Of a stretch of 32,000 nt of DNA, positions 4,988 to 31,410 are shown one piece after another. Under the pieces are notes generated by a model, which did no database searches, had not been told where the DNA came from, and worked only from the letters and a program-made list of their open reading frames with translations. This stretch comes from Ktedonobacterales bacterium (GTDB lineage: Bacteria > Chloroflexota > Ktedonobacteria > Ktedonobacterales > JADMIN01): NCBI GenBank assembly GCA_030167145.1, contig CP126532.1, forward strand, positions 3,690,001 to 3,722,000. Reading direction: 5' to 3'. The position numbers and the translations under genes were made by a program. Position 1 is the stretch's first letter, and every line of letters starts with the position of its first letter.

Positions 4988-6199
4988 TTGCTGGCTCATG
5001 ATCTGGCGAATCGCCGCCACCAGCCGGTCAATCTCTTCTTCGGTGTTATAGAATCCGGTCGCCACGCGGTTTGCCACTGGGGAGGGCGTATCGCGGATAA
5101 TGATGTTCTCTGCAAGCAGCTTTTTCACCAGGTCCGCTGGCGGAATGCCCTCTACCGCGAAATGCACCAATCCGGCCATATGGTCGGCGGGCGTAAACAG
5201 CGTCACGCCGTCGAGCGTGGCCAGCGCGTCGTAGCAGTAACGGCCCAGCGTGGCAATGCGGCGATAGACCCACTCCCAGCCAAGCTCCTCGCCGATCCAG
5301 CGCAGACTGGTGGTGAGCGCATGGAGGCCCGCCGGATAGAGCGTGGCGGTTTCGTAGCGGCTGGCGTTGGCCGGTGGCACATAATGGCCCTCGAAGTCGC
5401 TCATCCCATGTTGCACGCCCCAGTAAGCGATGAACGTCTGCTGGATGTCGCCCCAGCGGCGGCGCGGCACGAAGAGCGCGCCGGTGCCATCTGGCCCGCA
5501 GAGCCACTTCTGCCCGGAGCAGGCATAGGCATCCACGCCTAGCGTATAAACATTGGACGGCGTCATCCCGCAGGACTGCGCCGCGTCGCAGATCAACAGC
5601 GCGCCCACGCTATGCGCCAGATCAGCCAGCTCGCGCATCGGCAGCGCCATACCCGTTGCCCACGAGACATGCGAGAGCACCACGGCCTTCGTGCGCGGGC
5701 TGAGCACGCGGTGCAGTTCTTCCACCGGGTCGCGGTCCTTCAGGCCGATCTCGGTCATGCGAATCTTCACGCCATAGCGCTGCCGCAGCAGATAGACTGG
5801 ATACAGCCCACCAGCATGCTCCGTCGTCGCCGTCACCACTTCATCGCCCGGATGCCAGTCGAGGCCCATCAGCGCGATATTCATGCCCTCGGTGGTGTTG
5901 TGCGTCAGGGCGATCTCAGCGGGGTCACAGCCAAGCACACCGGCCATCGCCACGCGCCCACTGGCGAGACAGCCCATCAGGCGTGGGAATGACTCCGGTG
6001 AGATACGCCCATCTTCTAATTCTCGCCGCGCATAGTCGCTCATCGCCTCGTGGCTGCGCCGGGGCAGCGGGCCGTTGGTGCCCGTATTGAAGTAGGCGTA
6101 CTTCTGGGTCGCGGGCATCTCCGCGCGAATCGCCGCAATCTTCCCCCGCTCATCACTGCTCGTCGCGGTCCCCACCTGCGTCTGTGCTTCTGGTTCCAT
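4979..6199 (-). CDS. Class V aminotransferase-fold PLP-dependent enzyme (SufS/NifS/IscS superfamily, but no C-terminal active-site Cys seen)
   Basis: The PLP-lysine context is YACSGQKWLCGPDGTGALF. Other matching motifs are THNTTEGMN and LLICDAAQS. The region where desulfurases carry the catalytic Cys reads IIIRDTPSPVANRVATGFYN, with no Cys. The start is ambiguous: ATG 6199 (chosen) or TTG 6235. Confidence 0.85.
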   Translation of the reverse strand: MEPEAQTQVGTATSSDERGKIAAIRAEMPATQKYAYFNTGTNGPLPRRSHEAMSDYARRELEDGRISPESFPRLMGCLASGRVAMAGVLGCDPAEIALTHNTTEGMNIALMGLDWHPGDEVVTATTEHAGGLYPVYLLRQRYGVKIRMTEIGLKDRDPVEELHRVLSPRTKAVVLSHVSWATGMALPMRELADLAHSVGALLICDAAQSCGMTPSNVYTLGVDAYACSGQKWLCGPDGTGALFVPRRRWGDIQQTFIAYWGVQHGMSDFEGHYVPPANASRYETATLYPAGLHALTTSLRWIGEELGWEWVYRRIATLGRYCYDALATLDGVTLFTPADHMAGLVHFAVEGIPPADLVKKLLAENIIIRDTPSPVANRVATGFYNTEEEIDRLVAAIRQIMSQQSI

Positions 6200-6391
6200 A
6201 GTTATCCCCGCTGAACGCGCTCTACCGCTCGACAACGATACCTCTGGCTTCAGTCTACCATAGCGCGCGCTTGAAATTGGCCTGGGAGCTTTTCGTTACC
6301 TCTCATTGTCATGTAGCGGCGACCCTCAGCGACCCTCGGCATGCATGCAGGGCTGCGCATGCACTCGCCAACGCCTCATGCCTCAGAGTAG

Positions 6392-7444
6392 CTACGATAC
6401 ACGAGGTGTTTGCGCAAGTCCGAGCGCCAGAGGACGTACATGCAGGAGCAGTTCTTGGAGAAACTGATCAGGGCGAGTGAACGCCGCCAGGTGGCCAGAG
6501 TTCTTGATGAGGACGAAGGTTTTTTGCGGGGCCTGGATGTCGTCAACGTAGGCTTTGGCCGCCGCCGCCGGAGTAAAGAGGTCGCTGTCACCTTGAAAGA
6601 CATAGAATGGCATGGCGAACGAATTGCCGTAGCGGCGGAGATCGAACGACATGAGTTCGTGGAACAAGGCGTCGAGCGAGAGTTTCATGCCGCGCACTAT
6701 GTCTCTAACATCACGAAGTGTATGATTGGGCGAACTCATCATCGCTGGAAAGATCACGTCGAGTGCGAAGTTGGGGATGCCCATCGTCGCGCTTGCTTTC
6801 AGCACCCATTGATGATAGTCGTTGAGGTTGTGCGGAGTCCAGGAGGGACGGTTGCGCCAGAGGTCTTCCACGGCCTTGACCCCTTTCGTATTTCCAGTCT
6901 CACGCAGGCGTGCGATTGTCAGTTGGTGCGAGAGGTCCAGAGTGTCTGGGCCGTTCTGGTCAGTCCCGACGAACACCGACAACATATCTGGCCTGCGCTG
7001 GGCCACCATCACTCCGATCAAGCTGCCCACCGAACTCCCCAGCAGGACGATCTGATCCTTGCCAAGGCGGCGGCGCAGATACTCGATGACCTCAATCGCA
7101 TCCTGCGCGAGGCGCTCAAAGCTCAGTCCGCTGACGCTTGCATCCCCGTTCTTGCGCAGCGTCTTGCCAGCCCCGCGTTGATCCCACTGCACTACGGTAT
7201 AATGGCGCTCCCACGGCTGCAGGGTGGGAATGAACACCGAGTAGGTCGAGGCTGGGCCACCGTGCAGCAGCAAGAGCACAGGGTTAGCCCGGTCTTCGCC
7301 GCGAATGCTGATCCACTGTTCGATGCCGCCAATGGGCGTGAAGCCCTGTTCTACGATCCCATTGGGCGAGGACATCACTAACTCTTTGGCTCGCTTGCGT
7401 TGGTTGATGGAATGGAACAGAATACTGAGTAGTGGGCTGCTCAT
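6392..7444 (-). CDS. Alpha/beta-fold hydrolase (proline-iminopeptidase / epoxide-hydrolase-like)
   Basis: The oxyanion region is LLLHGGPAS and the nucleophile elbow is LLGSSVGS (G-x-S-x-G). A C-terminal GHLAAF supplies the catalytic His context. I trimmed the start to ATG 7444, preceded by AGGAGGAAAGAG. Confidence 0.85.
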   Translation of the reverse strand: MSSPLLSILFHSINQRKRAKELVMSSPNGIVEQGFTPIGGIEQWISIRGEDRANPVLLLLHGGPASTYSVFIPTLQPWERHYTVVQWDQRGAGKTLRKNGDASVSGLSFERLAQDAIEVIEYLRRRLGKDQIVLLGSSVGSLIGVMVAQRRPDMLSVFVGTDQNGPDTLDLSHQLTIARLRETGNTKGVKAVEDLWRNRPSWTPHNLNDYHQWVLKASATMGIPNFALDVIFPAMMSSPNHTLRDVRDIVRGMKLSLDALFHELMSFDLRRYGNSFAMPFYVFQGDSDLFTPAAAAKAYVDDIQAPQKTFVLIKNSGHLAAFTRPDQFLQELLLHVRPLALGLAQTPRVS

Positions 7445-7489
7445 GGGTTCCTCTCTTTCCTCCTGGGGTGGTGAGGTATCCAACCTCGT

Positions 7490-7546
7490 ACTGCGTATAG
7501 TTTATTGTGTATACTATACGCTTCACTGCGTATAGTATACACAATA
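7490..7546. promoter_or_regulatory. Operator-like palindrome cluster in the divergent hydrolase/TetR intergenic region
   Basis: A perfect 19-bp inverted repeat, tattgtgtatactatacgc (7503-7521) and gcgtatagtatacacaata (7528-7546), is separated by a 6-bp spacer. A third half-site copy, actgcgtatagt, occurs at 7490-7501 and repeats 7525-7536. It forms a second palindrome: gcgtatag (7493-7500) with ctatacgc (7514-7521). Confidence 0.7.
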
Positions 7547-7582
7547 CTGTCTCTGTGTCAACCCCTTGGAGAGGTGAGCGTT

Positions 7583-8332
7583 ATGAATCAGTCCGATGAC
7601 GTCGAGTTACCTGTGAGTCTTGCGGCGGCGTGGGGGGTCTATGCTCGTCCCACCAAGGGACCAAAACCGGGGCTGAGCCTCGACCGCATCATCGAGGCCA
7701 CGATCAAGGTGGCACTGACGGATGGCCTGGGGGCGGTTTCGATGAATCGCGTCGCCGCCGACCTGGGGACTGCGCCGATGTCACTGTATCGCTATGTTGG
7801 CTCTAAGGACGAACTGCTCGCGCTTTCCATGGATGCAGCGCTCGGCGCGCCAGCTCCTCAGTCCGAGCCAGAGGAGGGATGGCGCGAGGGACTTTCACGC
7901 TTTGCGCGGGCAATCTTTGCCGCCTATCGCCGCCATCCATGGACGCTGCGTGTCCCCATCAGCGGACCGCCAATCACCCCGAATCAAATCGCCTGGCTCG
8001 AGCGCGGACTGAGCAGCTTGCGCGAGACCAAACTCACGGAGGCCGAGAAGATCTCAGTGATCACGCTCATCAGCGGCTTTGCGCGTAATGCGGCGACATT
8101 GGAGGCCACGATCAGCGCGGCCATTCTGGCGGCTGGCTCTACAGTGCAGGCGACAATGGTCAGTTATGGGCGACTGCTCAGGAAGCTCACCGACGCCGAG
8201 AGGTTTCCCGCGCTCCACGCGGCCATTGCGTCAGGGGCAATTGACACGCCGGATGCGCCGGATGACGAGTTTACCTTCGGTCTCGAACGCATTCTCGACG
8301 GTATCGCGGCATTGATGCGTACACGATGCTAG
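7583..8332 (+). CDS. TetR/AcrR-family transcriptional regulator
   Basis: The N-terminal HTH is LDRIIEATIKVALTDGLGAVSMNRVAADLGTAPMSLYRYVGSKDELL. Start ATG 7583 follows GGAGAGGTGAG. It is divergent from the hydrolase gene across the palindromic operator. Confidence 0.9.
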   Translation: MNQSDDVELPVSLAAAWGVYARPTKGPKPGLSLDRIIEATIKVALTDGLGAVSMNRVAADLGTAPMSLYRYVGSKDELLALSMDAALGAPAPQSEPEEGWREGLSRFARAIFAAYRRHPWTLRVPISGPPITPNQIAWLERGLSSLRETKLTEAEKISVITLISGFARNAATLEATISAAILAAGSTVQATMVSYGRLLRKLTDAERFPALHAAIASGAIDTPDAPDDEFTFGLERILDGIAALMRTRC

Positions 8333-19371: not shown

Positions 19372-20316
19372 CTATCCCGCCGTCGCTGGCGCGGTGACGA
19401 CGATATCATTGACGACGCCGCGCACCCCTGGAATCGCCTTGGCGATGTCTTCGGCCTGGTAGCGCGTCTTCGCATCCGGCGCTTCGCCGCGCAGAATCAC
19501 CAGCGCATGCTCAGTCAGCACGATGATCGAGTCCAGCCCTTTGGCCGCCAGCGCCTGCTCCACGAGCGGCTGCAACCCTTCGAGATACAGCAGATGATCG
19601 GCCACTTCGACGACGCCAGGCGCGGCCAGCAATGCTGCGGTCGCCTGCTCACCAGTGGTGAAGAACTCGGCCTTGCCGTGCATTGAGACCCGCCCCGACT
19701 CCACCTCCAGCGTGATGTCGCGCGGGGGATTCTCGCCATAGGTGAAGCGCCGCGAGCCGTAGACATCCTCATCGAGCGCGCGCTCGGCGTCACGCTCGAT
19801 GAGGATGTCGGGCAGGTATGCAGGCAATGCTGCGTATGCGCCCGGTGTAATGCGCAGGTCAAGCTGCGCCTCGGCGCGGTCCCCGTGCTCTACATATTCG
19901 CCGATCACCATCTCATCCAGTGGCGCCACCACCGGACGCCGCGGACCTAGCCCCGTGCCCGGCAGCGCGGCGACGACGATGTGCGTGGCGAATTCGACGC
20001 CCTTATTCTCCGCATTCACCACCCGCACGCCCAGCAGTTCCACCTCCGCGCGCCCGCGTTTGCCCTCGCTAAGCAACCCCAGCACAGTGCGGCGGGTCAT
20101 GACCATCGCTGGCTCGCTGGCGCCGTCGCGGCTAACTGGCTCATCGCCGCACTCCGCGCGCCAGCCTGCTTCGCCTGGATACAGGCGCACGGACAGACAT
20201 ACCCCATGCTTGGGGCCTTCGAGAGGCTTGACGGTGGGGGGCCAGTGCTCCACCTCTTCTTGACCGCGCGCTTTCCGCAGAAAGAGATAGCGCACGGAAC
20301 CGCTGATGACGGGCAT
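19372..20316 (-). CDS. Double BON-domain protein with an uncharacterised ~170-aa N-terminal region
   Basis: Two BON-like units are present. The first is DITLEVESGRVSMHGKAEFFTTGEQATAALLAAPGVVEVADHL. The second is IIVLTEHALVILRGEAPDAKTRYQAEDIAKAIPGVRGVVNDIVV. I trimmed the start to ATG 20316, with GGAG 6 nt upstream. No signal peptide is evident. Confidence 0.7.
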   Translation of the reverse strand: MPVISGSVRYLFLRKARGQEEVEHWPPTVKPLEGPKHGVCLSVRLYPGEAGWRAECGDEPVSRDGASEPAMVMTRRTVLGLLSEGKRGRAEVELLGVRVVNAENKGVEFATHIVVAALPGTGLGPRRPVVAPLDEMVIGEYVEHGDRAEAQLDLRITPGAYAALPAYLPDILIERDAERALDEDVYGSRRFTYGENPPRDITLEVESGRVSMHGKAEFFTTGEQATAALLAAPGVVEVADHLLYLEGLQPLVEQALAAKGLDSIIVLTEHALVILRGEAPDAKTRYQAEDIAKAIPGVRGVVNDIVVTAPATAG

Positions 20317-20418
20317 AAGCTGCTCCAACTTCTTCGGGGCCACACACGGCCCGTATTCTATCGTATTCTAGCGCAGCAGAGCGCAGAGACGCTACCAGAC
20401 ATTCGGCCTATACGATCG

Positions 20419-21309: not shown

Positions 21310-22836
21310 TTAACTCGCTCGCGTCTCGTTCAACTCAAGCCGATAGAAGTTGAGCGGCGCGAGCGGTGGCGGCGGCTTGACCAGTGGTTCCTCCCAATAG
21401 ATCGGCTTGATGAACCCATCGCCACGTCCGAGTTGCACCGCATGCTCCCACTCCTCTTGCACGTTCGGGGAAGTAGCAGCGTGCGCCGACCAGAAGAGTT
21501 GGAAAATATCACAGTCTTCGATCAGGCGCATCAGCGCGGGATGCCACGGCTCGCCCGGAATCAGCGTATCGCGGTCGCGCAGGATCGTCAGCCCAAGGCC
21601 CCGATACAGATTGCGCGCGGCAAGCACGACTGGTGCATCTTCGTGGCTGTAGGACATAAAGATGCGGGTGTGGGGAGCGGCCTGGGCGATACCCTCGTTG
21701 CCGCTTCCTATCAGTAGCGTCTCACCGTCCTCCAGGCAGAGCAATGGCACGATGATAGTCGCGATATTGATCAGATCCAGGAAGATCGCGACCTTCGCCT
21801 CAACGGCTCGTCCCGCGAACTCAGGCTGCACGCGGAAGCGAAAATCAGCGCGGTGCCAGTCTTCCAGCCAGATGAATGACTGTCGCTTGGGATTAAATGT
21901 GATGCCGTTTCCTTCCGCGACGATGGTGATGCTCGCGCCACGCGCGGTCGGCATCAGCGCATCAACTGGCTTGCGAAGTGCCAAGCCGCCAGATTTGGGC
22001 TGCTGGCGGACAGCGTCGAACTTGACTGCGGCAAGAGCAGTGGCGATATGCGTATAGACCAGGAGTGAGTTCCATGTTCCCGCGCCAACTTCTTTCGGGT
22101 AGACGGCGGTGAACTGCAACCGTACGAGGTGGCTGCTCTCGGATTGCGGCTGAGACTGCGGCACCGCATCGGTCGCACGTTCTTCAGTCTCTCCGGCGCC
22201 TGGCGCCTCCGCGTCGCGATGGATGACGCCACCACCACTACTACCCGCACGCGCTGGCAGGCGCTCTGGCTCGCCGGCCCAGCCTCCTCCGATAGACGAC
22301 GTTGCACCGCGCTCGATACCAGGGGTTACACCCCCGGTTACGGATCCCAGTTCGTGCGCGATACCACCGCCAATACCCCCGATGAGGGATCCCACACCGC
22401 GCTCAACGCCTCCTATAATGCCCTCGGTGGACCGTCCAATTCTGCCCGCGTCCTCTTGCGCCAATCTGCCCAGTATGCCGGCTTCACGTAGCGCCACCGC
22501 TCCGAGCTTCTCGATTTCGTCCACCGCCTCTCCGCTGAGCTTCTCGCTTGCCATGGTCGTATACTCGACTGCTTCGCTGAGGCCGCGCAGGCCGCTGCTC
22601 AGGCCCACCGGAATCGCGACGGTATAGCCTGCCACAATCGCGAGAAACACGGCGGCGATATGCGTCCAGCCCGACGATTCCACGTGCAAATAGAAGATGG
22701 CAACTGCTTCGGTCGCCGCCGCCGTGACGATACCCGTCAGAACGCCCGCGATAACCGCGCGGCGCAAACCACGCCTGAACCACACGAGCATTTCTTGTGT
22801 TGCCGCCAAGAACATCACCAATACCCGCTCACTCAT
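21310..22836 (-). CDS. Membrane-anchored TIR-domain protein (2 TM, Gly-rich repeats, beta-rich middle domain, C-terminal TIR)
   Basis: The C-terminus reads RIFMSYSHEDAPVVLAARNLYRGLGLTILRDRDTLIPGEPWHPALMRLIEDCDIFQLFWSAHAATSPNVQEEWEHAV. This fits the TIR_2-type pattern, including the conserved Glu position. The N-terminal helices are AVIAGVLTGIVTAAATEAVAIFYL and WTHIAAVFLAIVAGYTVAIPVGL. The Gly-rich duplication is GVERGVGSLIGGIGGG / GIERGATSSIGGGWAG. Start ATG 22836 follows GAGGGTGG with 8-nt spacing. Confidence 0.8.
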   Translation of the reverse strand: MSERVLVMFLAATQEMLVWFRRGLRRAVIAGVLTGIVTAAATEAVAIFYLHVESSGWTHIAAVFLAIVAGYTVAIPVGLSSGLRGLSEAVEYTTMASEKLSGEAVDEIEKLGAVALREAGILGRLAQEDAGRIGRSTEGIIGGVERGVGSLIGGIGGGIAHELGSVTGGVTPGIERGATSSIGGGWAGEPERLPARAGSSGGGVIHRDAEAPGAGETEERATDAVPQSQPQSESSHLVRLQFTAVYPKEVGAGTWNSLLVYTHIATALAAVKFDAVRQQPKSGGLALRKPVDALMPTARGASITIVAEGNGITFNPKRQSFIWLEDWHRADFRFRVQPEFAGRAVEAKVAIFLDLINIATIIVPLLCLEDGETLLIGSGNEGIAQAAPHTRIFMSYSHEDAPVVLAARNLYRGLGLTILRDRDTLIPGEPWHPALMRLIEDCDIFQLFWSAHAATSPNVQEEWEHAVQLGRGDGFIKPIYWEEPLVKPPPPLAPLNFYRLELNETRAS

Positions 22837-23136
22837 GCGCGCTACCACCCTCGTATATGATGACTTTCCGCGCTACTCGCTACCCACAACCCATAGCCCA
22901 CGCCGCCTATCGCGTGCTGGTCCGCGCAACCGTGGCACAAGCATAGAGCGATTCAGTATTGCAGTCAAGGCGCGCTACTCCATTACGCTGAATCGTGCTC
23001 AATCCTTCAACCTGCCCTTGTGGAAAGGGCTAGGTGTGAGCGTACCATAGCCGGAGCGGCGGGCGATGTGGCCCCAATGTTGCTCACCAGCGGACATGTT
23101 CGCGCACAGCCCCGATGCGAGAGAATGGAGATCAGC

Positions 23137-25646: not shown

Positions 25647-25739
25647 GATTCTTGCCCGCCACAAAAAATTCGCGTAACGTTTTCCCCTCTTCGCGCGATT
25701 CGTGTATGCTGATACACACGTAGCGGAGTGGGGGATGCG

Positions 25740-26960
25740 ATGACGACGGCGACGATCACAACGACGGCTGACCTGGTGACGGCGCTCGCTGGCGAGCGCA
25801 CGCGGCTGGTGCGCCTCTGCGCCATCCTCACGCGCGACCCGCATGCCGCCGAAGACCTCGCGCAAGAAACGCTGATTGAGGCGTGGCGTTCGCTGGCGAG
25901 GCTGCGCGACCCCAGCGGACTCGCGCCGTGGCTTAATGTCATCGCCCGCAACGTCTGCCTGCGCTGGCAGCGCAGCCGCAGCCGCGACGCGGCGCACCAC
26001 GTCATGCCATCTGGCGAGCGCGAAACCCCGTCCGCACCCGCCCTGGCAGATGTGGTAGCGGATGACGCCGACATCGAGATCAACCTGGAGCGCGCCGAGC
26101 TAGCAGACCTGCTGGATCGCGCGCTGGGGCTGCTGCCAGCAGAGACACGCCATCTGCTGGTGGCAAGCTACGTGCAAGAGTTGCCCGCCGCTGAGATCGC
26201 GGCTCGGCTGGGAATGAGCGAGGGCGCGGTGCGCGTGCGGCTGCATCGCGGGAAACTGGCGCTGCGTCACGCGCTCACCACCGACCTGCGCCCTGAAGCC
26301 GCGACCTTCGGCATCGTCGCCGCCGCTGATGCTGATGCGCTAGATGCGATGGACGAGCCGCGTTGGCAGCAGACGCGCATCTGGTGCCCGTTCTGCGGCG
26401 CACACTATCTGATGTGTCGCATAGACCGCGAGAAAGGCGAGTTCTCCTACCGCTGTGCGGGCGAATGTATGCGCAATGGCGGGATCATTGGCCGGGCGCG
26501 GAACCCCGTCCTCCTCGCCGGGCTGACCAGCGCGAAATCTATCCTAACCCGCCAGTTGCTCACGCTCGACACCCACTATCGCCACCTGATGACGGTGGGC
26601 ACGAGCACATGCTCCGGCTGCGGCCAGCGCCTGCCCATGCGCCGCTGGACGCCTGAAAGCGCCGCCTCGGACCTCATCCCACCACCTTCGCCGCTCTATC
26701 TGCATGGCATCTACCATGGCTGCCTGCGTTGCGAATGGGGTGATTCCGCGACCCCCTGGCATCTCGCGCTGGATACCGCCCCCGCGCAGCGCTTCTGGCG
26801 GCGTCACCCCCGCATGCGCGCGCTCACCACGCGCTTGCTCGAATTCGACGGGCGGCCCGCGCTGCATACCGGCTTCCAGAGCACTGACGGAGCCGCACGG
26901 CTCGATCTCATCTCCGCCCGCGACACACACGAAGTGCTCTACGCCTCCGACGCGGGCTGA
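25740..26960 (+). CDS. ECF-type sigma-70 family RNA polymerase sigma factor with a ~225-aa Cys-rich C-terminal extension
   Basis: Region 2 is DPHAAEDLAQETLIEAWRSLARLRDPSGLAPWLNVIARNVCLRWQR. Region 4 is LLPAETRHLLVASYVQELPAAEIAARLGMSEGAVRVRLHRGKLALR. The extension (nt ~26280-26960) carries WCPFCGAHYLMC...YRCAGEC, CSGCG and GCLRCEW. Confidence 0.85.
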   Translation: MTTATITTTADLVTALAGERTRLVRLCAILTRDPHAAEDLAQETLIEAWRSLARLRDPSGLAPWLNVIARNVCLRWQRSRSRDAAHHVMPSGERETPSAPALADVVADDADIEINLERAELADLLDRALGLLPAETRHLLVASYVQELPAAEIAARLGMSEGAVRVRLHRGKLALRHALTTDLRPEAATFGIVAAADADALDAMDEPRWQQTRIWCPFCGAHYLMCRIDREKGEFSYRCAGECMRNGGIIGRARNPVLLAGLTSAKSILTRQLLTLDTHYRHLMTVGTSTCSGCGQRLPMRRWTPESAASDLIPPPSPLYLHGIYHGCLRCEWGDSATPWHLALDTAPAQRFWRRHPRMRALTTRLLEFDGRPALHTGFQSTDGAARLDLISARDTHEVLYASDAG

Positions 26961-27030
26961 CGCCGACCGCGCTGTTTCCCTCGCATTCATCTCCGCATGA
27001 CACGCTCTCCCGCGCCCCTTAAACAGGAGA

Positions 27031-28326
27031 ATGCCCATGATTGCCACATTGCGCCAGCGCAACTTCGCGCTCCTCTGGTTCGGCGGATTGATCTCTATCA
27101 CCGGCGACTGGGTGCTGATGGTTGGCCTGCCAATCTACGTCTTCCTGCTCACGCATTCGGTGCTCGCCACCAGCCTCATGTATCTGGCGGGCCGCGCGCC
27201 AAGCGTGTTGCTCGCCTCGCTAGCGGGCGTCTTCGTGGACCGCTGGGACCGCAAGCGCACGATGGTCATAACGAATGTTTTGCTGGCGTTGGCGCTGCTG
27301 CCGGTGCTACTGGCGCGCACGCCCGACCACGTGTGGATCATCTACATCGCCGCCTTTGTGGAATCCTGCATCGAGCAGTTCTTCACCCCCGCCGAGAGCG
27401 CGCTGCTGCCCAATCTCGTCGGCGAGGAGCATCTCGTCTCCGCCAATTCGCTCAACGCGCTCAGCAACAATCTCGCCCGGCTGGTTGGTCCCGCAGTTGG
27501 GGGTGTCATCGCCGGAGTATTCGGACTCAGCGGCATCGTGCTGGTGGATGCCGCCTCATTTCTGCTCGCTGCCCTGCTGATCGCGCTCATCGCCGCGCCA
27601 CATCGCGTGTCCACAGCTACCAGCGCGTCGCTTGCTCGCGCGGAGGCTGGCGCGCTGGCGCGGGTCGGGCGCGAATGGCTCGACGGCATGCGCGCCATCT
27701 TCTCCTCGCGCACGCTGACAGTGGTGCTGGTGGCGATCTCGATCACCGCCCTGGGCGAGGGCGTGATGGGCGTGCTGTTTCCGGTCTTCGTCAATCGTGT
27801 GCTGCATGGCGGCGCGCTGCAAATCGGCCAACTCATGAGCGCGCAGGCGGTCGGCGGGCTAATCGGCGGGCTACTGGTGGGCTTCGCGGGGCAGCGGGTG
27901 ATGTCGCGCTGGGTGATTGGCTTCTGCGGCATGGCGTTCGGCCTGCTCGACCTCGCCATCTTCAATTCGCCCGCGTTCTATCCGGTATTCTGGCTCTCGG
28001 TCGGCCTCTTCATCGCGGTCGGCATCCCCGGCATCGGCATGTTCACTGGTGTGCAGTCGCTCGCCCAGGCCGCCGCGCCCGACGCTTACCGGGGCCGCGT
28101 CTTCGGCGCGGTCGGCATGACGATGGGGCTGCTCGGCCTGCTTGGCAGCATCATCGCGGGCACCATCACCGACCACCTCGGCGTCGTCACCGTGCTCAAC
28201 ATCCAGGGCGCGGGCTACGTCGTTGCTGGCCTCCTCCTACTGCTCCTGCTGCCCAAACGCCAGCCATCTCCTGCCACATCCGAAACCACAGCCACCGCCG
28301 AAGCGCCCGTCGCGGCAGAGGTATAG
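27031..28326 (+). CDS. MFS transporter (MFS_3 / EntS-like 'transmembrane secretion effector' type)
   Basis: The N-terminus RQRNFALLWFGGLISITGDWVLMVGLPIYV and FVDRWDRKRTMV are typical of this MFS subgroup. There are about 12 TM helices. The overlapping Arg-rich 530-aa ORF in another frame was rejected. Confidence 0.85.
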   Translation: MPMIATLRQRNFALLWFGGLISITGDWVLMVGLPIYVFLLTHSVLATSLMYLAGRAPSVLLASLAGVFVDRWDRKRTMVITNVLLALALLPVLLARTPDHVWIIYIAAFVESCIEQFFTPAESALLPNLVGEEHLVSANSLNALSNNLARLVGPAVGGVIAGVFGLSGIVLVDAASFLLAALLIALIAAPHRVSTATSASLARAEAGALARVGREWLDGMRAIFSSRTLTVVLVAISITALGEGVMGVLFPVFVNRVLHGGALQIGQLMSAQAVGGLIGGLLVGFAGQRVMSRWVIGFCGMAFGLLDLAIFNSPAFYPVFWLSVGLFIAVGIPGIGMFTGVQSLAQAAAPDAYRGRVFGAVGMTMGLLGLLGSIIAGTITDHLGVVTVLNIQGAGYVVAGLLLLLLLPKRQPSPATSETTATAEAPVAAEV

Positions 28327-28633
28327 CGTCCGCGTTACGGCTCCTGGCGCGTGAATATACTCTTCGGGCGATCCGCGTATGCCAGGAGCCGCATCTCTGC
28401 CCACGACATCGCTTGTTCCAGGCTACCAGCCGCGCTCGCCAGCGCAGCGACATCAGACACGCGCCTGATATTTTCGTCCGCTTTCGCCCCACTTTCATGC
28501 CATCCTGCGCGCTCCTTCGTCTTATCAAGATGAGAGACGGTGGGACTTCTTGTCCGCTTTCGACGCGGCTGGTACAATGGGCCGCATAGATGAGCGCGGC
28601 TGCGCGCGGGCACGTTGGGTAGGCGAGGAAGGG

Positions 28634-30583
28634 ATGGGCCATATGCAGTCGGGACACACATCCGGGCGGCCAGCGGATACGGGGCAGCACAATGCGACTG
28701 GCGGGCAGCCCGCGCGGACGACCCCTGGCATGGCCGCTGGCGCGCTGCCCGCGCCGACCACACCGGATTCATCTACCGCGATGAACCCGCTGCTGAGCCT
28801 TCCCGCCACGCCGGGGCGGCGTTCGCTGCCCACCGCCGCGCCGCGCATCGCCAGCGCCGCCGCATCGCACCCCGATGACGGCGACACGCCTGCCCCCCGC
28901 AAACCCACGCTCACGGCGCAGGTCCGCGCGGTCCGCGCGCCCGATGTCGCGCGCCAGGCGCTCAGCGAATTGAAGTTGCTTGGCCAGGAGCTAGCCGTCC
29001 TCCCCGAACAACTTGAGGTCAACGGCCTCGCCCCCAGTCATCAGCGCAGCTTCATCGAAGCCTCGCGCGCCTACCTCAACCTCGCCGGGCAGGCCTGGGA
29101 ATCCATCGCCGAAGAACGCCTTGAACAGAGCGGCGCGGACTCCGACCACCGCCAGCGCGCCATCACCGTCGCGCGGCGTGTCTCCCAGCTTCAGCAAGAA
29201 TGTCAGAAGGCCAGCGGCAACCCCGTCTTCCGACTGCCGCGCAAGATTCCCCGCCACTGGCATCAGCGCGCGCACCTCATCACCTCCGGCGTGCAAGCCT
29301 GGCAAGAGCGCCTATCCGCCACACCGAATCCGCTGGTGATGGGCCGCGCGCTCTTCGGGCTGCGCGGCGCGGTGGGGCTAGCCTCGGCCAGTGGCCTCGC
29401 GCTCACCCTGCTCACCCTGCTCACCAACGCCATGCTGTTCCTGCTTGCCGCGCTCGGAATCGGCGCCGCGCTCGCGCAGGCAGCATACATGAGTCTCATG
29501 CCACCCACAGCCAAACCACCTTACATTCCCCCCCTCACCCTCGCGGGCCTCGATCCCGGCAGTGCTATCCGTTTGCTATCTACAAGGGGTCTGTCCTTTC
29601 TCTCGCCGGTAACGGTGCTCATCGCCGCTGCTATCGCATGGCCGCTGGTGTTCTTCTTCGCCCGCAAGCCATTGGGATTGCTGCTGGGCGCGGCGGTCTA
29701 CGCGCCCACGCGCACCACGCGCAACACCATCCGCCCCGCCTCCGCCGCCGTTGCGGGCGCGCTGCGCGCCTGGTGGCTCTTCATCAGCATCCTTGGCCTT
29801 GTGGCGATTATCGTCGCGCTCGTCCTCAGCGGCATCTTCCTCAATGAGCAGGGTCTCACTCAGCCCGATACGCTGGGTAGTTGGTTGGGACTTGGAGGAA
29901 CCCTACTGGGCAACGGCTCATTCCTGGCCGCCGCCGCTGGCGTCGCCGCTCTGCTGCTGCTCGCTGCTCCCGTGCTGCTCATCACCCTCGCGCGTGCCGT
30001 CGTGGAGCTTGGCGGTGGCCCCGGCTGGGCGCCCTCTGCCCGCCGCTATGCGCTCGCGCCCGCGCTCGCCACGCTCGCCCCGGTGATTGTCGCGCTGCTC
30101 GTCGCCATCTGGTTCGCGGCAACCAACTCCGGCTGGCAGAACACCACCTTTTTCAGCCTATCTCTGGGTTCGTTCTCCATCGCCGCAACGTTGCGCGGGT
30201 TGGCGTTGTTATTGGGTATACTCCTGCCCTACCTGCTGCTGATCGAGCTACCCTACCGCATTGGCATTCGCCGCTGGCGGCGCGCCTGGCTGCGCGACCT
30301 GACCGACCGTCGCGCCGATGTCGAATCGCACGTGCGCCGCCTCTCCGCCGCCGACCCCGACAGCGGCGCGCAAGACACCAGCGACGAGAACCTGCGCGCT
30401 ATGCAGTACGACATGGTGCTGCTCCAGTTCTATCAGAGCAAGACTCACGACATTCAGCGCACCCCCAGGGGACCTTACTCGCCCCGGCGCACGGTTGTCG
30501 CGCTGATCCTTGTCGTCGCCCTCGCGCTGCTGCTCGATCAAGGGCTGCCGCTGTTGGCGCAGGCGCTCGCCACAACGCGCTAA
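28634..30583 (+). CDS. Large uncharacterised polytopic membrane protein (~250-aa cytoplasmic N-terminal region, ~10-11 TM helices, charged C-terminal segment plus a terminal helix)
   Basis: Third-position GC stays high through the disordered N-terminus, which supports coding. I recognised no family motif. There is no H-box, N/G1/G2 ATPase box, or GGDEF/EAL/HD motif. The start is uncertain: ATG 28634 or 28643 after GAGGAAGGG, while the ORF opens at 28550. Confidence 0.7.
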   Translation: MGHMQSGHTSGRPADTGQHNATGGQPARTTPGMAAGALPAPTTPDSSTAMNPLLSLPATPGRRSLPTAAPRIASAAASHPDDGDTPAPRKPTLTAQVRAVRAPDVARQALSELKLLGQELAVLPEQLEVNGLAPSHQRSFIEASRAYLNLAGQAWESIAEERLEQSGADSDHRQRAITVARRVSQLQQECQKASGNPVFRLPRKIPRHWHQRAHLITSGVQAWQERLSATPNPLVMGRALFGLRGAVGLASASGLALTLLTLLTNAMLFLLAALGIGAALAQAAYMSLMPPTAKPPYIPPLTLAGLDPGSAIRLLSTRGLSFLSPVTVLIAAAIAWPLVFFFARKPLGLLLGAAVYAPTRTTRNTIRPASAAVAGALRAWWLFISILGLVAIIVALVLSGIFLNEQGLTQPDTLGSWLGLGGTLLGNGSFLAAAAGVAALLLLAAPVLLITLARAVVELGGGPGWAPSARRYALAPALATLAPVIVALLVAIWFAATNSGWQNTTFFSLSLGSFSIAATLRGLALLLGILLPYLLLIELPYRIGIRRWRRAWLRDLTDRRADVESHVRRLSAADPDSGAQDTSDENLRAMQYDMVLLQFYQSKTHDIQRTPRGPYSPRRTVVALILVVALALLLDQGLPLLAQALATTR

Positions 30584-30681
30584 CCCTCAGCAATTCTGCT
30601 TGCATCTTTCGCCCCGCCCCCATTTTCTGCTATGCTGGCGGTGTCGTTCGTTGTCGCGTTCGCAGTCTCGCGGAGCCAGCC

Positions 30682-31410
30682 ATGACAACGCCATCCACCG
30701 GTAGCACCCCAGCGGATGCTACCGCGATTCGCATCCTCATCTGCGAAGACCAAACCCTCATGCGTGAGGGGTTGCGCACCGTGCTGGACCTCGAACCCGG
30801 CTTCGTCATCGTCGGCGAAGCCGCCGACGGCGCGGAGGGCGTGCGGCTCGCCGAGCAGTTGCGCCCCGACATCATCCTGATGGACATCCAGATGCCCCGG
30901 CAGAACGGCGTCCAGGCCACCGCCGCCATCACCGCGCGCGGCCTACCGTCCCGCGTCATCATCCTCACCACCTTTGACTACGAAGATTACGTTTTCGACG
31001 CCATCAAGGCCGGAGCCGTCAGCTATCTGCTCAAAGACACCCCCGCCGCTGAACTTGCCGCCACCATTCGCCGTGTCTATGCCGGCGAATCCTTCATTCA
31101 GCCCAGCGTTGCCACCAAACTGCTGATGGAGTTCGGTCGCCGAGGACCCGTCGCCAGCGAATCGGACCCCCGAACTGGCGACCGCGACACGGCTGGCGCA
31201 TCCAACCAGCCCGACACCGAAGGCCTCAGCCAGCGCGAGGTAGACGTGCTGCGTTTGCTCGCCCAGGGCGCCAGCAACCGCGATATCGCCGATCAACTCG
31301 TGCTCGCCGAGGGTACCGTCAAGAATCATGTCTCCAACATTCTGATGAAGCTGCATGCCGCCAATCGCACCCAGGCCGCTAATCTCGCCCGTGAGCGCGG
31401 CCTCATTTAG
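30682..31410 (+). CDS. NarL/FixJ (LuxR-type HTH) family two-component response regulator
   Basis: The REC domain is IRILICEDQTLMREGL...PDIILMDIQMPRQNG...VIILTTF...AIKAGAVSYLLKD, with the acidic pocket, phospho-Asp, Thr and Lys all present. The LuxR HTH is LSQREVDVLRLLAQGASNRDIADQLVLAEGTVKNHVSNILMKLHAANRTQAA. Start ATG 30682 has GGAG 6 nt upstream. Confidence 0.9.
   Translation: MTTPSTGSTPADATAIRILICEDQTLMREGLRTVLDLEPGFVIVGEAADGAEGVRLAEQLRPDIILMDIQMPRQNGVQATAAITARGLPSRVIILTTFDYEDYVFDAIKAGAVSYLLKDTPAAELAATIRRVYAGESFIQPSVATKLLMEFGRRGPVASESDPRTGDRDTAGASNQPDTEGLSQREVDVLRLLAQGASNRDIADQLVLAEGTVKNHVSNILMKLHAANRTQAANLARERGLI

What the first reader, a model, noticed from the sequence alone, without database searches (positions are those of the whole stretch)
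21310..22836. Single-polypeptide membrane anchor, Gly-rich repeats, unknown beta-rich domain and C-terminal TIR: candidate atypical NADase defence or signalling protein
Seen in sequence:
- The last ~90 aa (nt ~21394-21669) fit a TIR_2-type domain: IFMSYSHED...G...RDRDTLIPGEPW...IEDCDIFQLFWS...SPNVQEEWEHA. A Glu sits at the position that is catalytic for NAD+ cleavage in bacterial and plant TIRs.
- The N-terminus (nt ~22594-22761) has two strongly hydrophobic helices.
- Next comes an imperfectly duplicated Gly-rich block (nt ~22228-22431), GVERGVGSLIGGIGGG / GIERGATSSIGGGWAG, which resembles glycine-zipper membrane-active segments.
- A ~150-aa beta-rich domain follows (LVRLQFTAVYPKEVGAGTWNSLLVYTH...FRFRVQPEF...). 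I cannot assign it.

Established knowledge: characterised TIR immune systems (Thoeris ThsB/ThsA, CBASS or Pycsar TIR effectors, TIR-STING, SPARTA TIR-APAZ/pAgo) pair TIR with a separate sensor or effector. I found none of those partners in the window: no SIR2/SLOG/Macro ThsA, no CD-NTase, no Argonaute, no STING.

Inference: membrane anchor and TIR are fused in one chain, so this could be a self-contained abortive-infection or envelope-stress NADase. TIR domains are also common in non-immune contexts in Chloroflexota and cyanobacteria, so this is a hypothesis only.
Basis: partly seen in the sequence, partly recalled or inferred. Interest (0 to 1): 0.7.

Follow-up and report, generated by a model that had tools for sequence, protein, structure and literature searches.

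The report
Membrane-tethered TIR protein with conserved β-sandwich partner
This gene encodes a membrane-anchored protein that probably cleaves NAD+ through its TIR domain, and it belongs to a large, unstudied bacterial family in which the TIR is always preceded by the same unnamed β-sandwich domain; nothing around it suggests a classical anti-phage defence island.

Summary
The ORF (21310-22836, minus strand, 508 aa) has a two-helix membrane hairpin, a Gly-rich repeated tail, a β-rich domain and a C-terminal TIR_2 domain (E = 1.1e-13). Glu462 sits at the catalytic position.

New findings:
- **Obligate module:** the β-rich domain is an Ig-like β-sandwich with no Pfam, NCBIfam or PDB sequence match. 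It pairs with this TIR type in 158 of 166 proteins, 13-37 residues upstream. The family has about 3,000 clusters at 50% identity across many phyla.
- **Variable partners:** the module is fused to Ser/Thr kinases, FHA, TPR, HEAT, WD40, DUF4062 and other domains.
- **Membrane tethering:** 59% of members carry unrelated membrane anchors.
- **N-terminus:** the query's N-terminus is a fused copy of a small stand-alone membrane protein. The "Gly-rich duplication" is the end of eight degenerate 11-residue repeats.
- **No partner, no island:** no partner gene is conserved in 80 genomic loci. Neighbours are housekeeping genes, with no specific defence-model hits. The family is absent from phages and nearly absent from plasmids.

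The best reading is a stand-alone, clustering-activated, membrane-proximal TIR NADase whose biological role is unresolved. An anti-phage role is neither supported nor excluded.

The parts
21310..22836 (-). Complete CDS, 508 aa plus stop; identical to a hypothetical protein of a Ktedonobacterales MAG
   Evidence: start supported
22940..22968 (-). Sigma-70-like promoter match (TTGACT-17-TATGCT) about 100 nt upstream of the start; a consensus match only
   Evidence: 1 found against 0.7 expected, so weak
22845..22852 (-). Shine-Dalgarno-like GAGGGTGG, 8 nt before the ATG
   Evidence: read directly
22759..22836 (-). Residues 1-26: N-terminal segment with five Arg (R4, R21, R22, R25, R26); predicted cytoplasmic by the positive-inside rule
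   Evidence: topology is inferred
22690..22758 (-). Residues 27-49: TM helix 1, with an invariant T42-E43 pair inside the helix
   Evidence: hydropathy; invariants
22597..22668 (-). Residues 57-80: TM helix 2, entered by invariant G56-x-T58-H59 and carrying G70-Y71; only about 7 residues (50-56) separate it from TM1
22282..22545 (-). Residues 98-185: eight in-phase degenerate 11-residue repeats. They run from EKLSGEAVDEI / EKLGAVALREA to GGVERGVGSLI / GGIGGGIAHEL / ERGATSSIGGG.
   Evidence: (lag 11 z = 5.9; lag 30 z = 4.7); no DNA repeat
22123..22281 (-). Residues 186-238: low-complexity Pro/Glu/Ala/Gln linker, poorly conserved
   Evidence: omega 0.63 against the ortholog
21733..22122 (-). Residues 239-368: Ig-like beta-sandwich with one inserted helix, unnamed in Pfam and NCBIfam. 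Family-conserved residues are F242, P247, W255, H263, F314-N315-P316, W323, E325, H328, R329, F332 and R333
   Evidence: (pLDDT 91.4)
21664..21732 (-). Residues 369-391: flexible linker between the beta-sandwich and the TIR (pLDDT below 50); family range is 13-37 residues
21334..21663 (-). Residues 392-501: TIR_2 domain with family-invariant motifs F-x-SYS-x-x-D, FQLFWS, S456, E462-W463 and F-x-[RK]-P-x-YW
21451..21453 (-). Codon of Glu462, at the catalytic-Glu position of TIR NADases
   Evidence: Glu in 235/237
21463..21465 (-). Codon of Asn458, at the Trp position of the canonical WxxxE motif. In the family this position is Tyr or Phe in about 70% of members and Asn in about 10%
   Evidence: aligned to the Trp of 9m0n and Cat1
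22423..22836 (-). Codons 1-138: a segment that is hyper-divergent against the closest ortholog (dS 0.54-0.96). The rest of the gene has dS 0.10-0.27 and the flanking genes 0.19-0.25. This points to a mosaic or recombined 5' end

Best explanation
The gene encodes a cytoplasm-facing, membrane-tethered TIR enzyme assembled from two evolutionary units.

Unit 1 (residues 1 to about 190) is a lineage-restricted small membrane protein. It has an Arg-rich N-terminus and a two-helix hairpin with a conserved Glu in TM1 and a conserved His at the mouth of TM2. A tail of 11-residue repeats follows. This unit also exists as stand-alone 160-183 aa proteins.

Unit 2 (residues 239-508) is a widespread, obligate output module: an Ig-like beta-sandwich, a short flexible linker and a TIR domain.

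Proposed mechanism:
1. The anchor holds the module at the inner face of the membrane.
2. A change sensed at or through the anchor, or simple two-dimensional crowding, drives the modules to self-associate. The beta-sandwich would act as the assembly or regulatory domain.
3. Association completes the composite TIR active site around Glu462, and NAD+ is cleaved, either depleting it or producing ADPR-type nucleotides.

The protein acts alone, with no dedicated partner gene. Its setting is a chromosomal stress, signalling or conflict response rather than a mobile defence island.

Shown here: the architecture, the obligate pairing of the module, the conservation of Glu462, the convergent membrane tethering in the family and the absence of conserved neighbours. 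Inferred: topology (positive-inside rule), NADase chemistry, oligomerisation-dependent activation, the trigger and the biological role.
For: - TIR_2 scores above the Pfam cut-off and the TIR fold is confirmed. The best structural matches are NADase TIRs: SPARTA, SARM1 and AbTir.
- E462 aligns with the catalytic Glu and is Glu in 235 of 237 members. The TIR evolves under strong purifying selection (omega 0.09).
- The beta-sandwich model is confident. A beta-domain profile finds 2,967 cluster representatives at E <= 1e-3. In 158 of 166 proteins the TIR follows 13-37 residues later. Seven of the eight exceptions end right after the beta-domain, so they look truncated, and the eighth is a weak repeat-protein match.
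- Partner domains vary widely: Pkinase in 13 of 72, FHA in 8 of 72, plus TPR, HEAT, WD40, pentapeptide, SLATT, DUF4062, REC and trypsin. The 144 N-terminal extensions include 45 singleton clusters.
- 98 of 165 members have TM segments outside the module. Most are bare tethers: the median post-TM tail is 9 residues, and N-terminal anchors have 0-8 residues before them. The anchors are not homologous to one another.
- The N-terminal unit occurs as stand-alone proteins P0167-P0173 and shows 11-residue periodicity.
- No neighbour family is conserved beyond 8 of 80 loci.
Against: - No biochemical data exist for any family member.
- Asn458 replaces the aromatic residue of the WxxxE motif that most family members (Tyr/Phe) and canonical TIR NADases (Trp) carry. 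This particular protein could be weakly active or inactive.
- The beta-sandwich matches only generic Ig-like folds (best E = 1.3e-3, TM about 0.5). Its role as an assembly or regulatory domain is conjecture.
- The relative orientation of the two domains is not determined (pTM 0.51).
- No oligomer model could be computed.
- Topology rests on hydropathy and the positive-inside rule only.
Confidence: 0.55

Rival explanations
1. Self-contained abortive-infection anti-phage NADase. Phage infection or envelope damage activates the membrane-bound TIR, which depletes NAD+ and kills or arrests the cell.
For: - The catalytic Glu is conserved.
- The gene is a single-gene system with no partner.
- Single-protein TIR anti-phage systems, one of them with a TM segment, have been validated in E. 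coli (PMC11350192).
- Some family members carry defence-associated domains such as DUF4062 and SLATT.
- One homologue lies near CHAT and S41 peptidases and ParA/RepB genes.
- The 5' sensor-like segment is hyper-divergent.
- Paralogues occur in tandem.
Against: - There are no specific PADLOC hits in the window or among 118 immediate neighbours of family members. The only hits are generic kinase, AAA, HEAT-repeat and hydrolase similarities, each in at most 2 of 118 neighbours.
- Neighbours are mostly housekeeping genes.
- The query matches PADLOC TIR models only weakly (E = 2.9e-4 and 0.018).
- The family is absent from 50,697 phage records and has one weak full-length hit in 72,556 plasmids. 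Those collections under-sample these phyla.
- One subgroup is stably syntenic with the cytochrome oxidase operon.
- The module is very conserved across phyla.
Confidence: 0.2
2. Non-catalytic TIR scaffold. The module is a protein-protein adaptor that assembles membrane-proximal signalling complexes with Ser/Thr kinases and FHA proteins, as animal TLR/MyD88 TIRs do.
For: - The module is frequently fused to Ser/Thr kinases and FHA domains.
- FHA genes lie near the stand-alone copies of the N-terminal unit.
- Asn458 replaces the NAD-site aromatic residue.
- MyD88, MAL and TLR TIRs are among the structural matches.
- Genomic contexts are housekeeping.
Against: - Glu462 is conserved in 99% of members, and the surrounding S-x-x-V-x-x-E-W motif is near-invariant. 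That is hard to explain without catalysis.
- The top structural matches are catalytic TIRs.
- The query itself has no kinase or FHA domain.
Confidence: 0.15
3. Housekeeping regulator of NAD(H) or respiration at the membrane. A tethered TIR locally tunes NAD+ or generates a nucleotide signal linked to respiratory-chain or membrane energetic state. The buried Glu43 and His59 of the hairpin would act as a proton or ion sensor.
For: - The HEAT-beta-TIR subgroup sits divergently next to the cytochrome c oxidase operon in 8 loci plus L004.
- Membrane tethering is widespread in the family.
- T42-E43 and T58-H59 in the hairpin are invariant.
- The window neighbours are ion and solute transporters and a DedA protein.
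Against: - The COX synteny is confined to one Chloroflexota subgroup with a different N-terminus.
- There is no other recurrent link to respiration genes.
- The sensor idea is pure inference from four sequences.
Confidence: 0.1

Closest known systems
Bacterial TIR_2 (PF13676) NADases such as AbTir, and the TIR of short-pAgo SPARTA TIR-APAZ (closest solved structures)
   Same: The same fold: rmsd about 2.1 A over about 120 columns to SPARTA TIR, with AbTir and SARM1 also matched. A Glu sits at the catalytic position. By analogy, activation would be by self-association (own knowledge of TIR enzymology).
   Different: There is no APAZ domain and no Argonaute partner. The accessory domain is an N-terminal Ig-like beta-sandwich not seen in those proteins. 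The Trp of WxxxE is Asn here. The protein is membrane-anchored.
Single-protein TIR anti-phage systems of E. coli (Nat Commun 2024, PMC11350192)
   Same: These are stand-alone TIR proteins. Some carry an added TM, TPR or AAA domain, and they need the TIR active-site residues for defence.
   Different: Those systems were picked from E. coli and validated against phages. This family was not detected in phage records and is almost absent from plasmid records. It sits in housekeeping neighbourhoods and has the extra beta-sandwich. Sequence relatedness to those systems was not tested.
Sensor-TIR effectors that form filaments: TIR-SAVED and TIR-STING (CBASS), Pycsar TIR, CARF-TIR Cat1
   Same: All share the layout of one accessory domain directly fused to a TIR. 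Cat1 is a weak sequence match (E = 1.8e-3) that aligns the catalytic Glu. PADLOC SAVED_TIR gives a weak hit, covering the TIR part only.
   Different: The accessory domain here is not SAVED, STING, CARF or a cNMP-binding fold. No cyclase or CRISPR genes lie nearby.
Thoeris ThsB
   Same: A TIR-type protein; the ThsB model gives a weak hit (E = 0.018), and PF08937 matches 3 of 72 family members.
   Different: No ThsA (SIR2 or Macro/SLOG) is found in the window or among family neighbours. The architecture is different.
Animal Toll-like and IL-1 receptors, and SARM1
   Same: All are membrane-associated proteins with a cytoplasmic TIR. In many family members a kinase is joined to the TIR, recalling TIR-plus-IRAK signalling (own knowledge). 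SARM1 is a multidomain regulated TIR NADase and is among the structural matches.
   Different: Most family anchors are bare tethers with no extracellular sensor. No homology beyond the TIR fold was shown.
TIR-bearing conflict systems of multicellular bacteria (Kaur et al., eLife 2020, PMC7159879)
   Same: Both show the same phyla and the same combinatorial fusion of TIR with kinase, FHA, vWA, WD40 and TPR domains, with TIR viewed as a generator of nucleotide signals.
   Different: Those systems are multi-gene (vWA-MoxR, iSTAND or GTPase-centred). No such partners are conserved here. The beta-sandwich-TIR module was not found described in the passages read.

Membership tests
TIR domain superfamily (Pfam TIR_2, PF13676) | Profile match above the curated gathering score | tested here: met
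   E = 1.1e-13, 52.2 bits against 28, residues 392-501
TIR domain superfamily (Pfam TIR_2, PF13676) | Flavodoxin-like TIR fold | tested here: met
   AF2 model. Foldseek PDB matches are SPARTA TIR, SARM1, AbTir and MyD88, with E down to 1.1e-5 and rmsd about 2 A
Catalytic (NADase) TIR domains | Glutamate at the catalytic position of helix alpha-C | tested here: met
   E462 aligns with the Glu of 9m0n and Cat1. It is Glu in 235 of 237 members. Residue-level structural superposition was not possible
Catalytic (NADase) TIR domains | Aromatic residue (Trp of WxxxE) four positions before the Glu | tested here: not met
   Asn458 in the query. The family has Tyr 96, Phe 74, Asn 25, His 15 and Trp 5
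Catalytic (NADase) TIR domains | NAD+ cleavage activity | not testable with these tools
   Needs an enzyme assay
Thoeris (ThsB + ThsA) | ThsB-type TIR protein next to a ThsA (SIR2 or Macro/SLOG) gene | tested here: not met
   ThsB model only at E = 0.018. No ThsA-like gene in the window or among 118 family neighbours
CBASS / Pycsar / type III CRISPR TIR effectors | Nucleotide-sensing domain (SAVED, STING, CARF, cNMP-binding) fused to the TIR, with a cyclase or Cas10 encoded nearby | tested here: not met
   The PADLOC SAVED_TIR hit covers model positions 10-94 of 404 only, which is the TIR part. The accessory domain is an Ig-like sandwich. No cyclase lies nearby
SPARTA (TIR-APAZ + short pAgo) | APAZ domain C-terminal to the TIR and an adjacent Argonaute gene | tested here: not met
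   The TIR is C-terminal, followed only by about 7 residues. No Argonaute in the window
Beta-sandwich-TIR module family (defined here) | Beta-domain profile match followed within 13-37 residues by a TIR carrying FQLFWS...S...EW...F-x-[RK]-P-x-YW | tested here: met
   The query seeded the profile; independent members were recovered at E down to 1e-81. The linker is 23 residues. The motifs are present, with K477 in place of the usual Arg
SLATT 2TM effector domains | Match to the SLATT profiles | tested here: not met
   No SLATT hit at E <= 1 for the query. Only one of 72 family members has SLATT_1
Glycine-zipper membrane segments | Hydrophobic GxxxG-type segment matching a Gly-zipper profile | tested here: not met
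   No Pfam hit at E <= 1. The region carries Glu, Arg and His, lies below the hydropathy threshold and is in phase with charged 11-mer repeats
Defence-island gene (operational definition) | Neighbourhood enriched in known defence or mobile-element genes | tested here: not met
   See (window; 118 neighbours in 80 loci; plasmids and phages). No formal enrichment statistic against a background was computed

The most novel reading that the evidence does not exclude
The beta-sandwich-TIR module may define a large, unrecognised class of bacterial membrane-proximal TIR devices. Membrane tethering was acquired many times independently, through tail anchors, signal anchors and hairpins, because the module needs two-dimensional clustering to fire. 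The frequent fusion to Ser/Thr kinases and FHA domains would make it a prokaryotic counterpart of TIR-plus-kinase signalosomes. The conserved His/Glu/Arg/Trp face of the beta-sandwich would be the ligand-binding or assembly switch. The query would be a minimal version whose input is a swappable small membrane-sensor cassette.
Probability: 0.18. Interest if true: 0.72.

Novelty: new variant of a known kind. Interest (0 to 1): 0.45.

Why it matters
TIR domains are central to immunity in bacteria, plants and animals, and most characterised bacterial examples depend on a known sensor domain or a partner gene.

This work shows a family of roughly 3,000 sequence clusters, spread over at least nine phyla, in which the TIR is locked to one unnamed Ig-like domain. 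More than half of its members are tethered to the membrane by unrelated anchors. No member has been studied, and the genes sit outside recognisable defence islands.

If the module is an active NADase, it would add a membrane-proximal, partner-free mode of TIR regulation. It would also show that neighbourhood-based defence predictors miss a sizeable group of TIR proteins. If it is a signalling scaffold, it would tie bacterial Ser/Thr-kinase and FHA networks to TIR domains.

For this single gene the finding is modest. It is a hypothetical protein in a MAG with a plausible but untested activity.

Tried and rejected
- **Profile libraries on the beta-domain.** Pfam gave no consistent hit across 20 beta-domain sequences. 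NCBIfam on the whole protein gave nothing meaningful. A profile search of PDB sequences matched only TIRs.
- **Gly-rich block as a DNA tandem repeat.** None was found.
- **N-terminal hairpin as SLATT or glycine zipper.** No support. Other two-TM family members have unrelated anchors.
- **Conserved partner gene.** ORFs from 80 loci were clustered. The largest neighbour clusters were cytochrome oxidase subunits in one syntenic subgroup, plus scattered WD40/STAND proteins.
- **mad2 hit of the downstream methyltransferase.** The PADLOC hit covers only the generic SAM-methyltransferase core, so I did not treat it as a defence signal.
- **Gene downstream of the stand-alone N-terminal-unit copies as a split beta-TIR module.** Rejected: hmmsearch score -2.2 and hhalign probability 0.2%. 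My guess that its second half is transglutaminase-like found no PDB sequence support.
- **Literature searches for this module or architecture.** Nothing specific was found. The held library is incomplete, so earlier descriptions cannot be excluded.
Full report
**1.

The minus-strand ORF 21310..22848 is present. The ATG at 22836 is the likely start, giving 508 aa. A GAGGGTGG motif lies 8 nt upstream. The three full-length homologues begin M[SN]ER. An identical 508-aa hypothetical protein exists in a Ktedonobacterales MAG on a 5.07-Mb contig.

- Pfam TIR_2 matches residues 392-501 at E = 1.1e-13, 52 bits against a cut-off of 28.
- Two hydropathy peaks mark helices at about 27-49 and 57-80.
- The β-rich region folds in AlphaFold2 as a confident β-sandwich with one inserted helix. 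pLDDT is 91.4 and pTM 0.86 when modelled alone, and pLDDT is 82 with the TIR attached.
- No Thoeris, CBASS, Pycsar or Argonaute partner is in the window.

**2. The TIR domain**

The two-domain model matches solved TIRs. SPARTA TIR-APAZ is best (E = 1.1e-5, rmsd 2.1 Å), followed by SARM1, AbTir, MyD88 and TIR-STING.

A profile of the module against PDB sequences hits only TIRs. It aligns E462 with the Glu of SEWVKKE (9m0n) and of SDWCWDE (Cat1).

Across 254 aligned family sequences, E462 is Glu in 235 of the 237 that have a residue there. Also near-invariant are F393, S395-Y396-S397, D400, G415, G428, W431, FQLFWS (445-450), S456, W463, A466 and F-x-R-P-x-YW (475-481).

One caveat applies. The position four residues before the Glu is the Trp of the canonical WxxxE motif. 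In the family it is Tyr (96) or Phe (74), but it is Asn in the query and 24 others.

**3. The β-rich domain is the key**

A homology search showed that only P0001-P0003 share the whole protein. Twenty further proteins match just the C-terminal 52-56%. Their other domains are completely different: kinase+FHA, TPR, pentapeptide, HEAT, VWA and WD40.

The shared unit starts sharply at residue about 239 and aligns cleanly. The β-domain has:

- no Pfam match in any of 20 members;
- no NCBIfam match;
- no PDB sequence match;
- only generic Ig-like structural neighbours, such as CARDB, PapD/ASH, macroglobulin and transglutaminase C-terminal domains, with best E = 1.3e-3 and TM about 0.5 (viral library likewise).

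An exhaustive profile search with the β-domain alone found 2,967 50%-identity cluster representatives at E ≤ 1e-3, and 839 at E ≤ 1e-30. Of 166 β-domain proteins in hand, 158 have the TIR 13-37 residues downstream. Seven of the eight exceptions end right after the β-domain, so they look truncated, and the eighth (P0025) is a weak match to a 3,519-aa repeat protein. The pair is therefore an obligate module.

Conserved β-domain residues include a polar and aromatic set: W255, H263, N315, W323, E325, H328, R329 and R333. That pattern suggests a functional surface, though this is inference.

**4. What accompanies the module**

- *Pfam scans (72 representatives plus 10 more):* TIR_2 in 67 of 72, Pkinase in 13, FHA in 8. 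Single cases include TPR, HEAT, WD40, pentapeptide, ImpA_N and SLATT_1. There are also DUF4062 (a TIR-like domain recently tied to defence), a receiver domain and a post-TM trypsin domain.
- *N-terminal extensions:* the 144 extensions form one kinase cluster of 45 (35 of them confirmed kinase-like by an iterative search), clusters of 11, 10 and 5, many smaller ones, and 45 singletons.
- *Membrane segments:* 98 of 165 members have predicted TM segments outside the module. 53 have one C-terminal TM, 22 one N-terminal TM and 10 two N-terminal TMs.
- *Nature of the anchors:* the C-terminal ones are mostly tail anchors, with a median of 9 residues after the TM and fewer than 30 in 39 of 53. The N-terminal ones mostly have 0-8 residues before the TM. 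In the examples read directly, the positive charges follow the TM. The anchors are not homologous to one another.

Membrane tethering of a cytoplasmic module therefore looks convergent.

**5. The query's own N-terminus**

A first search of residues 1-233 found only P0167, a 169-aa protein. A profile of four sequences then found seven stand-alone proteins of 160-183 aa, one named as Ktedonobacterales.

They share the whole unit:

- an amphipathic, Arg-rich start;
- TM1 with an invariant T-E pair;
- a short loop;
- TM2 entered by G-x-T-H and carrying G-Y;
- a tail with strong 11-residue periodicity, z = 2.4-8.4 in ten sequences and 5.9 in the query.

The repeat consensus is E-[KHR]-[LGV]-G-[GR]-[EG]-A-[VLI]-[HGR]-[GED]-[VA]. 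In the query, eight in-phase units span residues 98-185. No DNA repeat underlies this.

Eleven-residue repeats are typical of right-handed coiled coils and of amphipathic helices that lie on membranes, such as apolipoproteins, α-synuclein and perilipins (own knowledge). Whether these Gly-rich units behave that way is unknown.

The query is thus a fusion of a small membrane protein to the β-TIR module. By the positive-inside rule (five Arg before TM1, about a 7-residue loop), both termini and the TIR face the cytoplasm. This is inference.

**6. Genomic context**

*Window.* The window encodes oxidoreductases, ApbE, aminotransferases, TetR and GntR regulators, an SBF-like transporter, a Na+/H+ exchanger, a BON protein, a SAM methyltransferase, DedA, an MFS transporter, an ECF-type sigma factor and a response regulator. 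The only PADLOC hit is a generic methyltransferase-core match. GC content is unremarkable.

*Closest ortholog.* The arrangement DedA / TIR gene / methyltransferase is kept in the contig of the 80%-identical ortholog.

*Family.* In 80 loci from named genomes, the family spans Chloroflexota, Acidobacteriota, Planctomycetota, Actinomycetota, Gemmatimonadota, Proteobacteria, Verrucomicrobia, Bacteroidota and a cyanobacterium.

- No neighbour family occurs in more than 8 loci. The top clusters are cytochrome c oxidase subunits in one syntenic HEAT-β-TIR subgroup.
- The 118 immediate neighbours are heterogeneous and largely housekeeping.
- At E ≤ 1e-10 they hit only generic kinase, AAA, HEAT-repeat and hydrolase PADLOC models, each in at most 2 of 118 neighbours.
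- tblastn found no homologue in 50,697 phage records. It found one weak full-length hit (22.8% identity) in 72,556 plasmids. Those collections under-represent these phyla.

**7. Evolutionary rates**

I compared the window gene with its ortholog region by region.

| Region | ω (dN/dS) | dS |
|---|---|---|
| TIR (residues 392-508) | 0.09 | 0.13 |
| β-sandwich (residues 239-368) | 0.16 | 0.16 |
| Codons 1-138 | about 0.3 | 0.54-0.96 |
| Rest of the gene (codons 139-508) | – | 0.10-0.27 |
| Flanking DedA and methyltransferase | – | 0.19-0.25 |

The 5′ 415 nt is therefore a hyper-divergent, probably recombined segment. This fits the family-wide picture of a constant output module joined to interchangeable input or anchor parts.

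**8. Interpretation**

The constant, strongly constrained β-sandwich-TIR unit with a near-invariant catalytic Glu is best read as an enzymatic output module. The variable parts supply localisation and input.

All characterised TIR NADases need self-association to form the active site (own knowledge; filament and tetramer structures are among the matches). A membrane tether would favour association by confining the module to two dimensions. The β-sandwich is the obvious candidate for an assembly or regulatory element.

I give this reading 0.55. The alternatives are:

- a classical abortive-infection defence role, 0.2;
- a non-catalytic adaptor in kinase/FHA signalling, 0.15;
- a respiration- or NAD-linked housekeeping regulator, 0.1.

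The first alternative keeps the same chemistry and differs mainly in biological role.

**9. Comparison and novelty**

The protein is a bona fide TIR_2 member. It fails the membership tests for Thoeris, CBASS/Pycsar/Cat1-type effectors and SPARTA. It lacks one feature of canonical catalytic TIRs, the WxxxE aromatic residue.

It resembles the single-protein TIR systems of E. coli in being stand-alone. It resembles the TIR-bearing conflict proteins of multicellular bacteria in phyletic range and domain combinatorics. I found no description of the β-sandwich-TIR module in the literature available here.

I rate it a new variant of a known kind, of moderate interest. The family-level pattern is worth a follow-up. 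The single gene is a plausible but untested TIR enzyme.

Noticed in passing
L030, L033, L036, L041, L043, L044, L045, L051 (module gene at about 5400-6800) and L004 7999-9426: A HEAT-repeat + beta-sandwich + TIR subgroup sits divergently next to the cytochrome c oxidase operon (COX2, COX1, COX3 and further subunits). The position is conserved across Anaerolineae, Chloroflexia and Aggregatilineales MAGs and one bin labelled Pleurocapsa. That is an unusually stable, housekeeping-type location for a TIR gene.
   Followed up: partly
window 22423-22836 compared with L085 576-990: The first 138 codons of the gene have dS 0.54-0.96 against the closest ortholog. The rest of the gene has dS 0.10-0.27 and both flanking genes 0.19-0.25. 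This suggests the membrane-anchor cassette was exchanged by recombination.
   Followed up: partly
P0167-P0173; L086 393-902; L088 6001-6552: The N-terminal unit exists as stand-alone 160-183 aa proteins with His-rich C-termini (for example ...LVHHGHD). In the three contigs seen (two with DNA), a TM protein of unknown function follows: L086 1140-1394, and L088 6586-7425 plus 7434-7922, which looks frameshifted. In the two long contigs, FHA-domain proteins lie 2-3 genes downstream.
   Followed up: partly
P0064, P0105 and nine other representatives (cluster): This subgroup has DUF4062 (itself a TIR-like domain linked to the Evangelion anti-phage family), then the beta-sandwich, TIR and a C-terminal tail anchor. 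That puts two TIR-type domains in one chain.
   Followed up: partly
P0024 (1378 aa); L031 and L079: P0024 carries two complete beta-sandwich-TIR modules flanking a Ser/Thr kinase. Two loci carry two module genes side by side, and two MAGs (DATKZY, DATARR) have two loci each. The family forms paralogues.
   Followed up: no
L011 817-4380, L012 3-3422, L032 7338-11519: Very large WD40-repeat proteins (about 1,100-1,400 aa) lie immediately next to the module gene in these loci. The cluster representative (L015, about 1,070 aa, from a locus where no module ORF was called) has a helical N-terminal region, a TM segment and many WD40-like repeats. The L032 ORF also matched my TIR profile.
   Followed up: no
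L003 3031-4765: Next to the FHA-bearing homologue P0005 lie a NADAR-domain gene (ADP-ribose/NAD-related) and a zinc-ribbon protein. This is a single case and was not seen elsewhere.
   Followed up: no
window 25728-30583: A sigma-70 family (ECF-like) protein carries about 230 extra C-terminal residues. It is followed by two large ORFs (26997-28589, 530 aa; 28550-30583, 677 aa) with no Pfam or PADLOC match. Next comes a LuxR-type response regulator with an unassigned N-terminal extension of about 280 residues (29881-31410).
   Followed up: no
window 19372-20343 (-): This 323-aa protein has a C-terminal BON domain and an unassigned N-terminal region of about 260 residues. It lies two genes downstream of the TIR gene on the same strand.
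   Followed up: no
NC_019761.1 33546-34229 (hit H1): The only plasmid-borne full-length relative of the module (22.8% identity, 84% coverage) is on a 50-kb plasmid of the cultured cyanobacterium Allocoleopsis franciscana PCC 7113. Together with Paractinoplanes aksuensis (L068), it is a possible experimental entry point.
   Followed up: no
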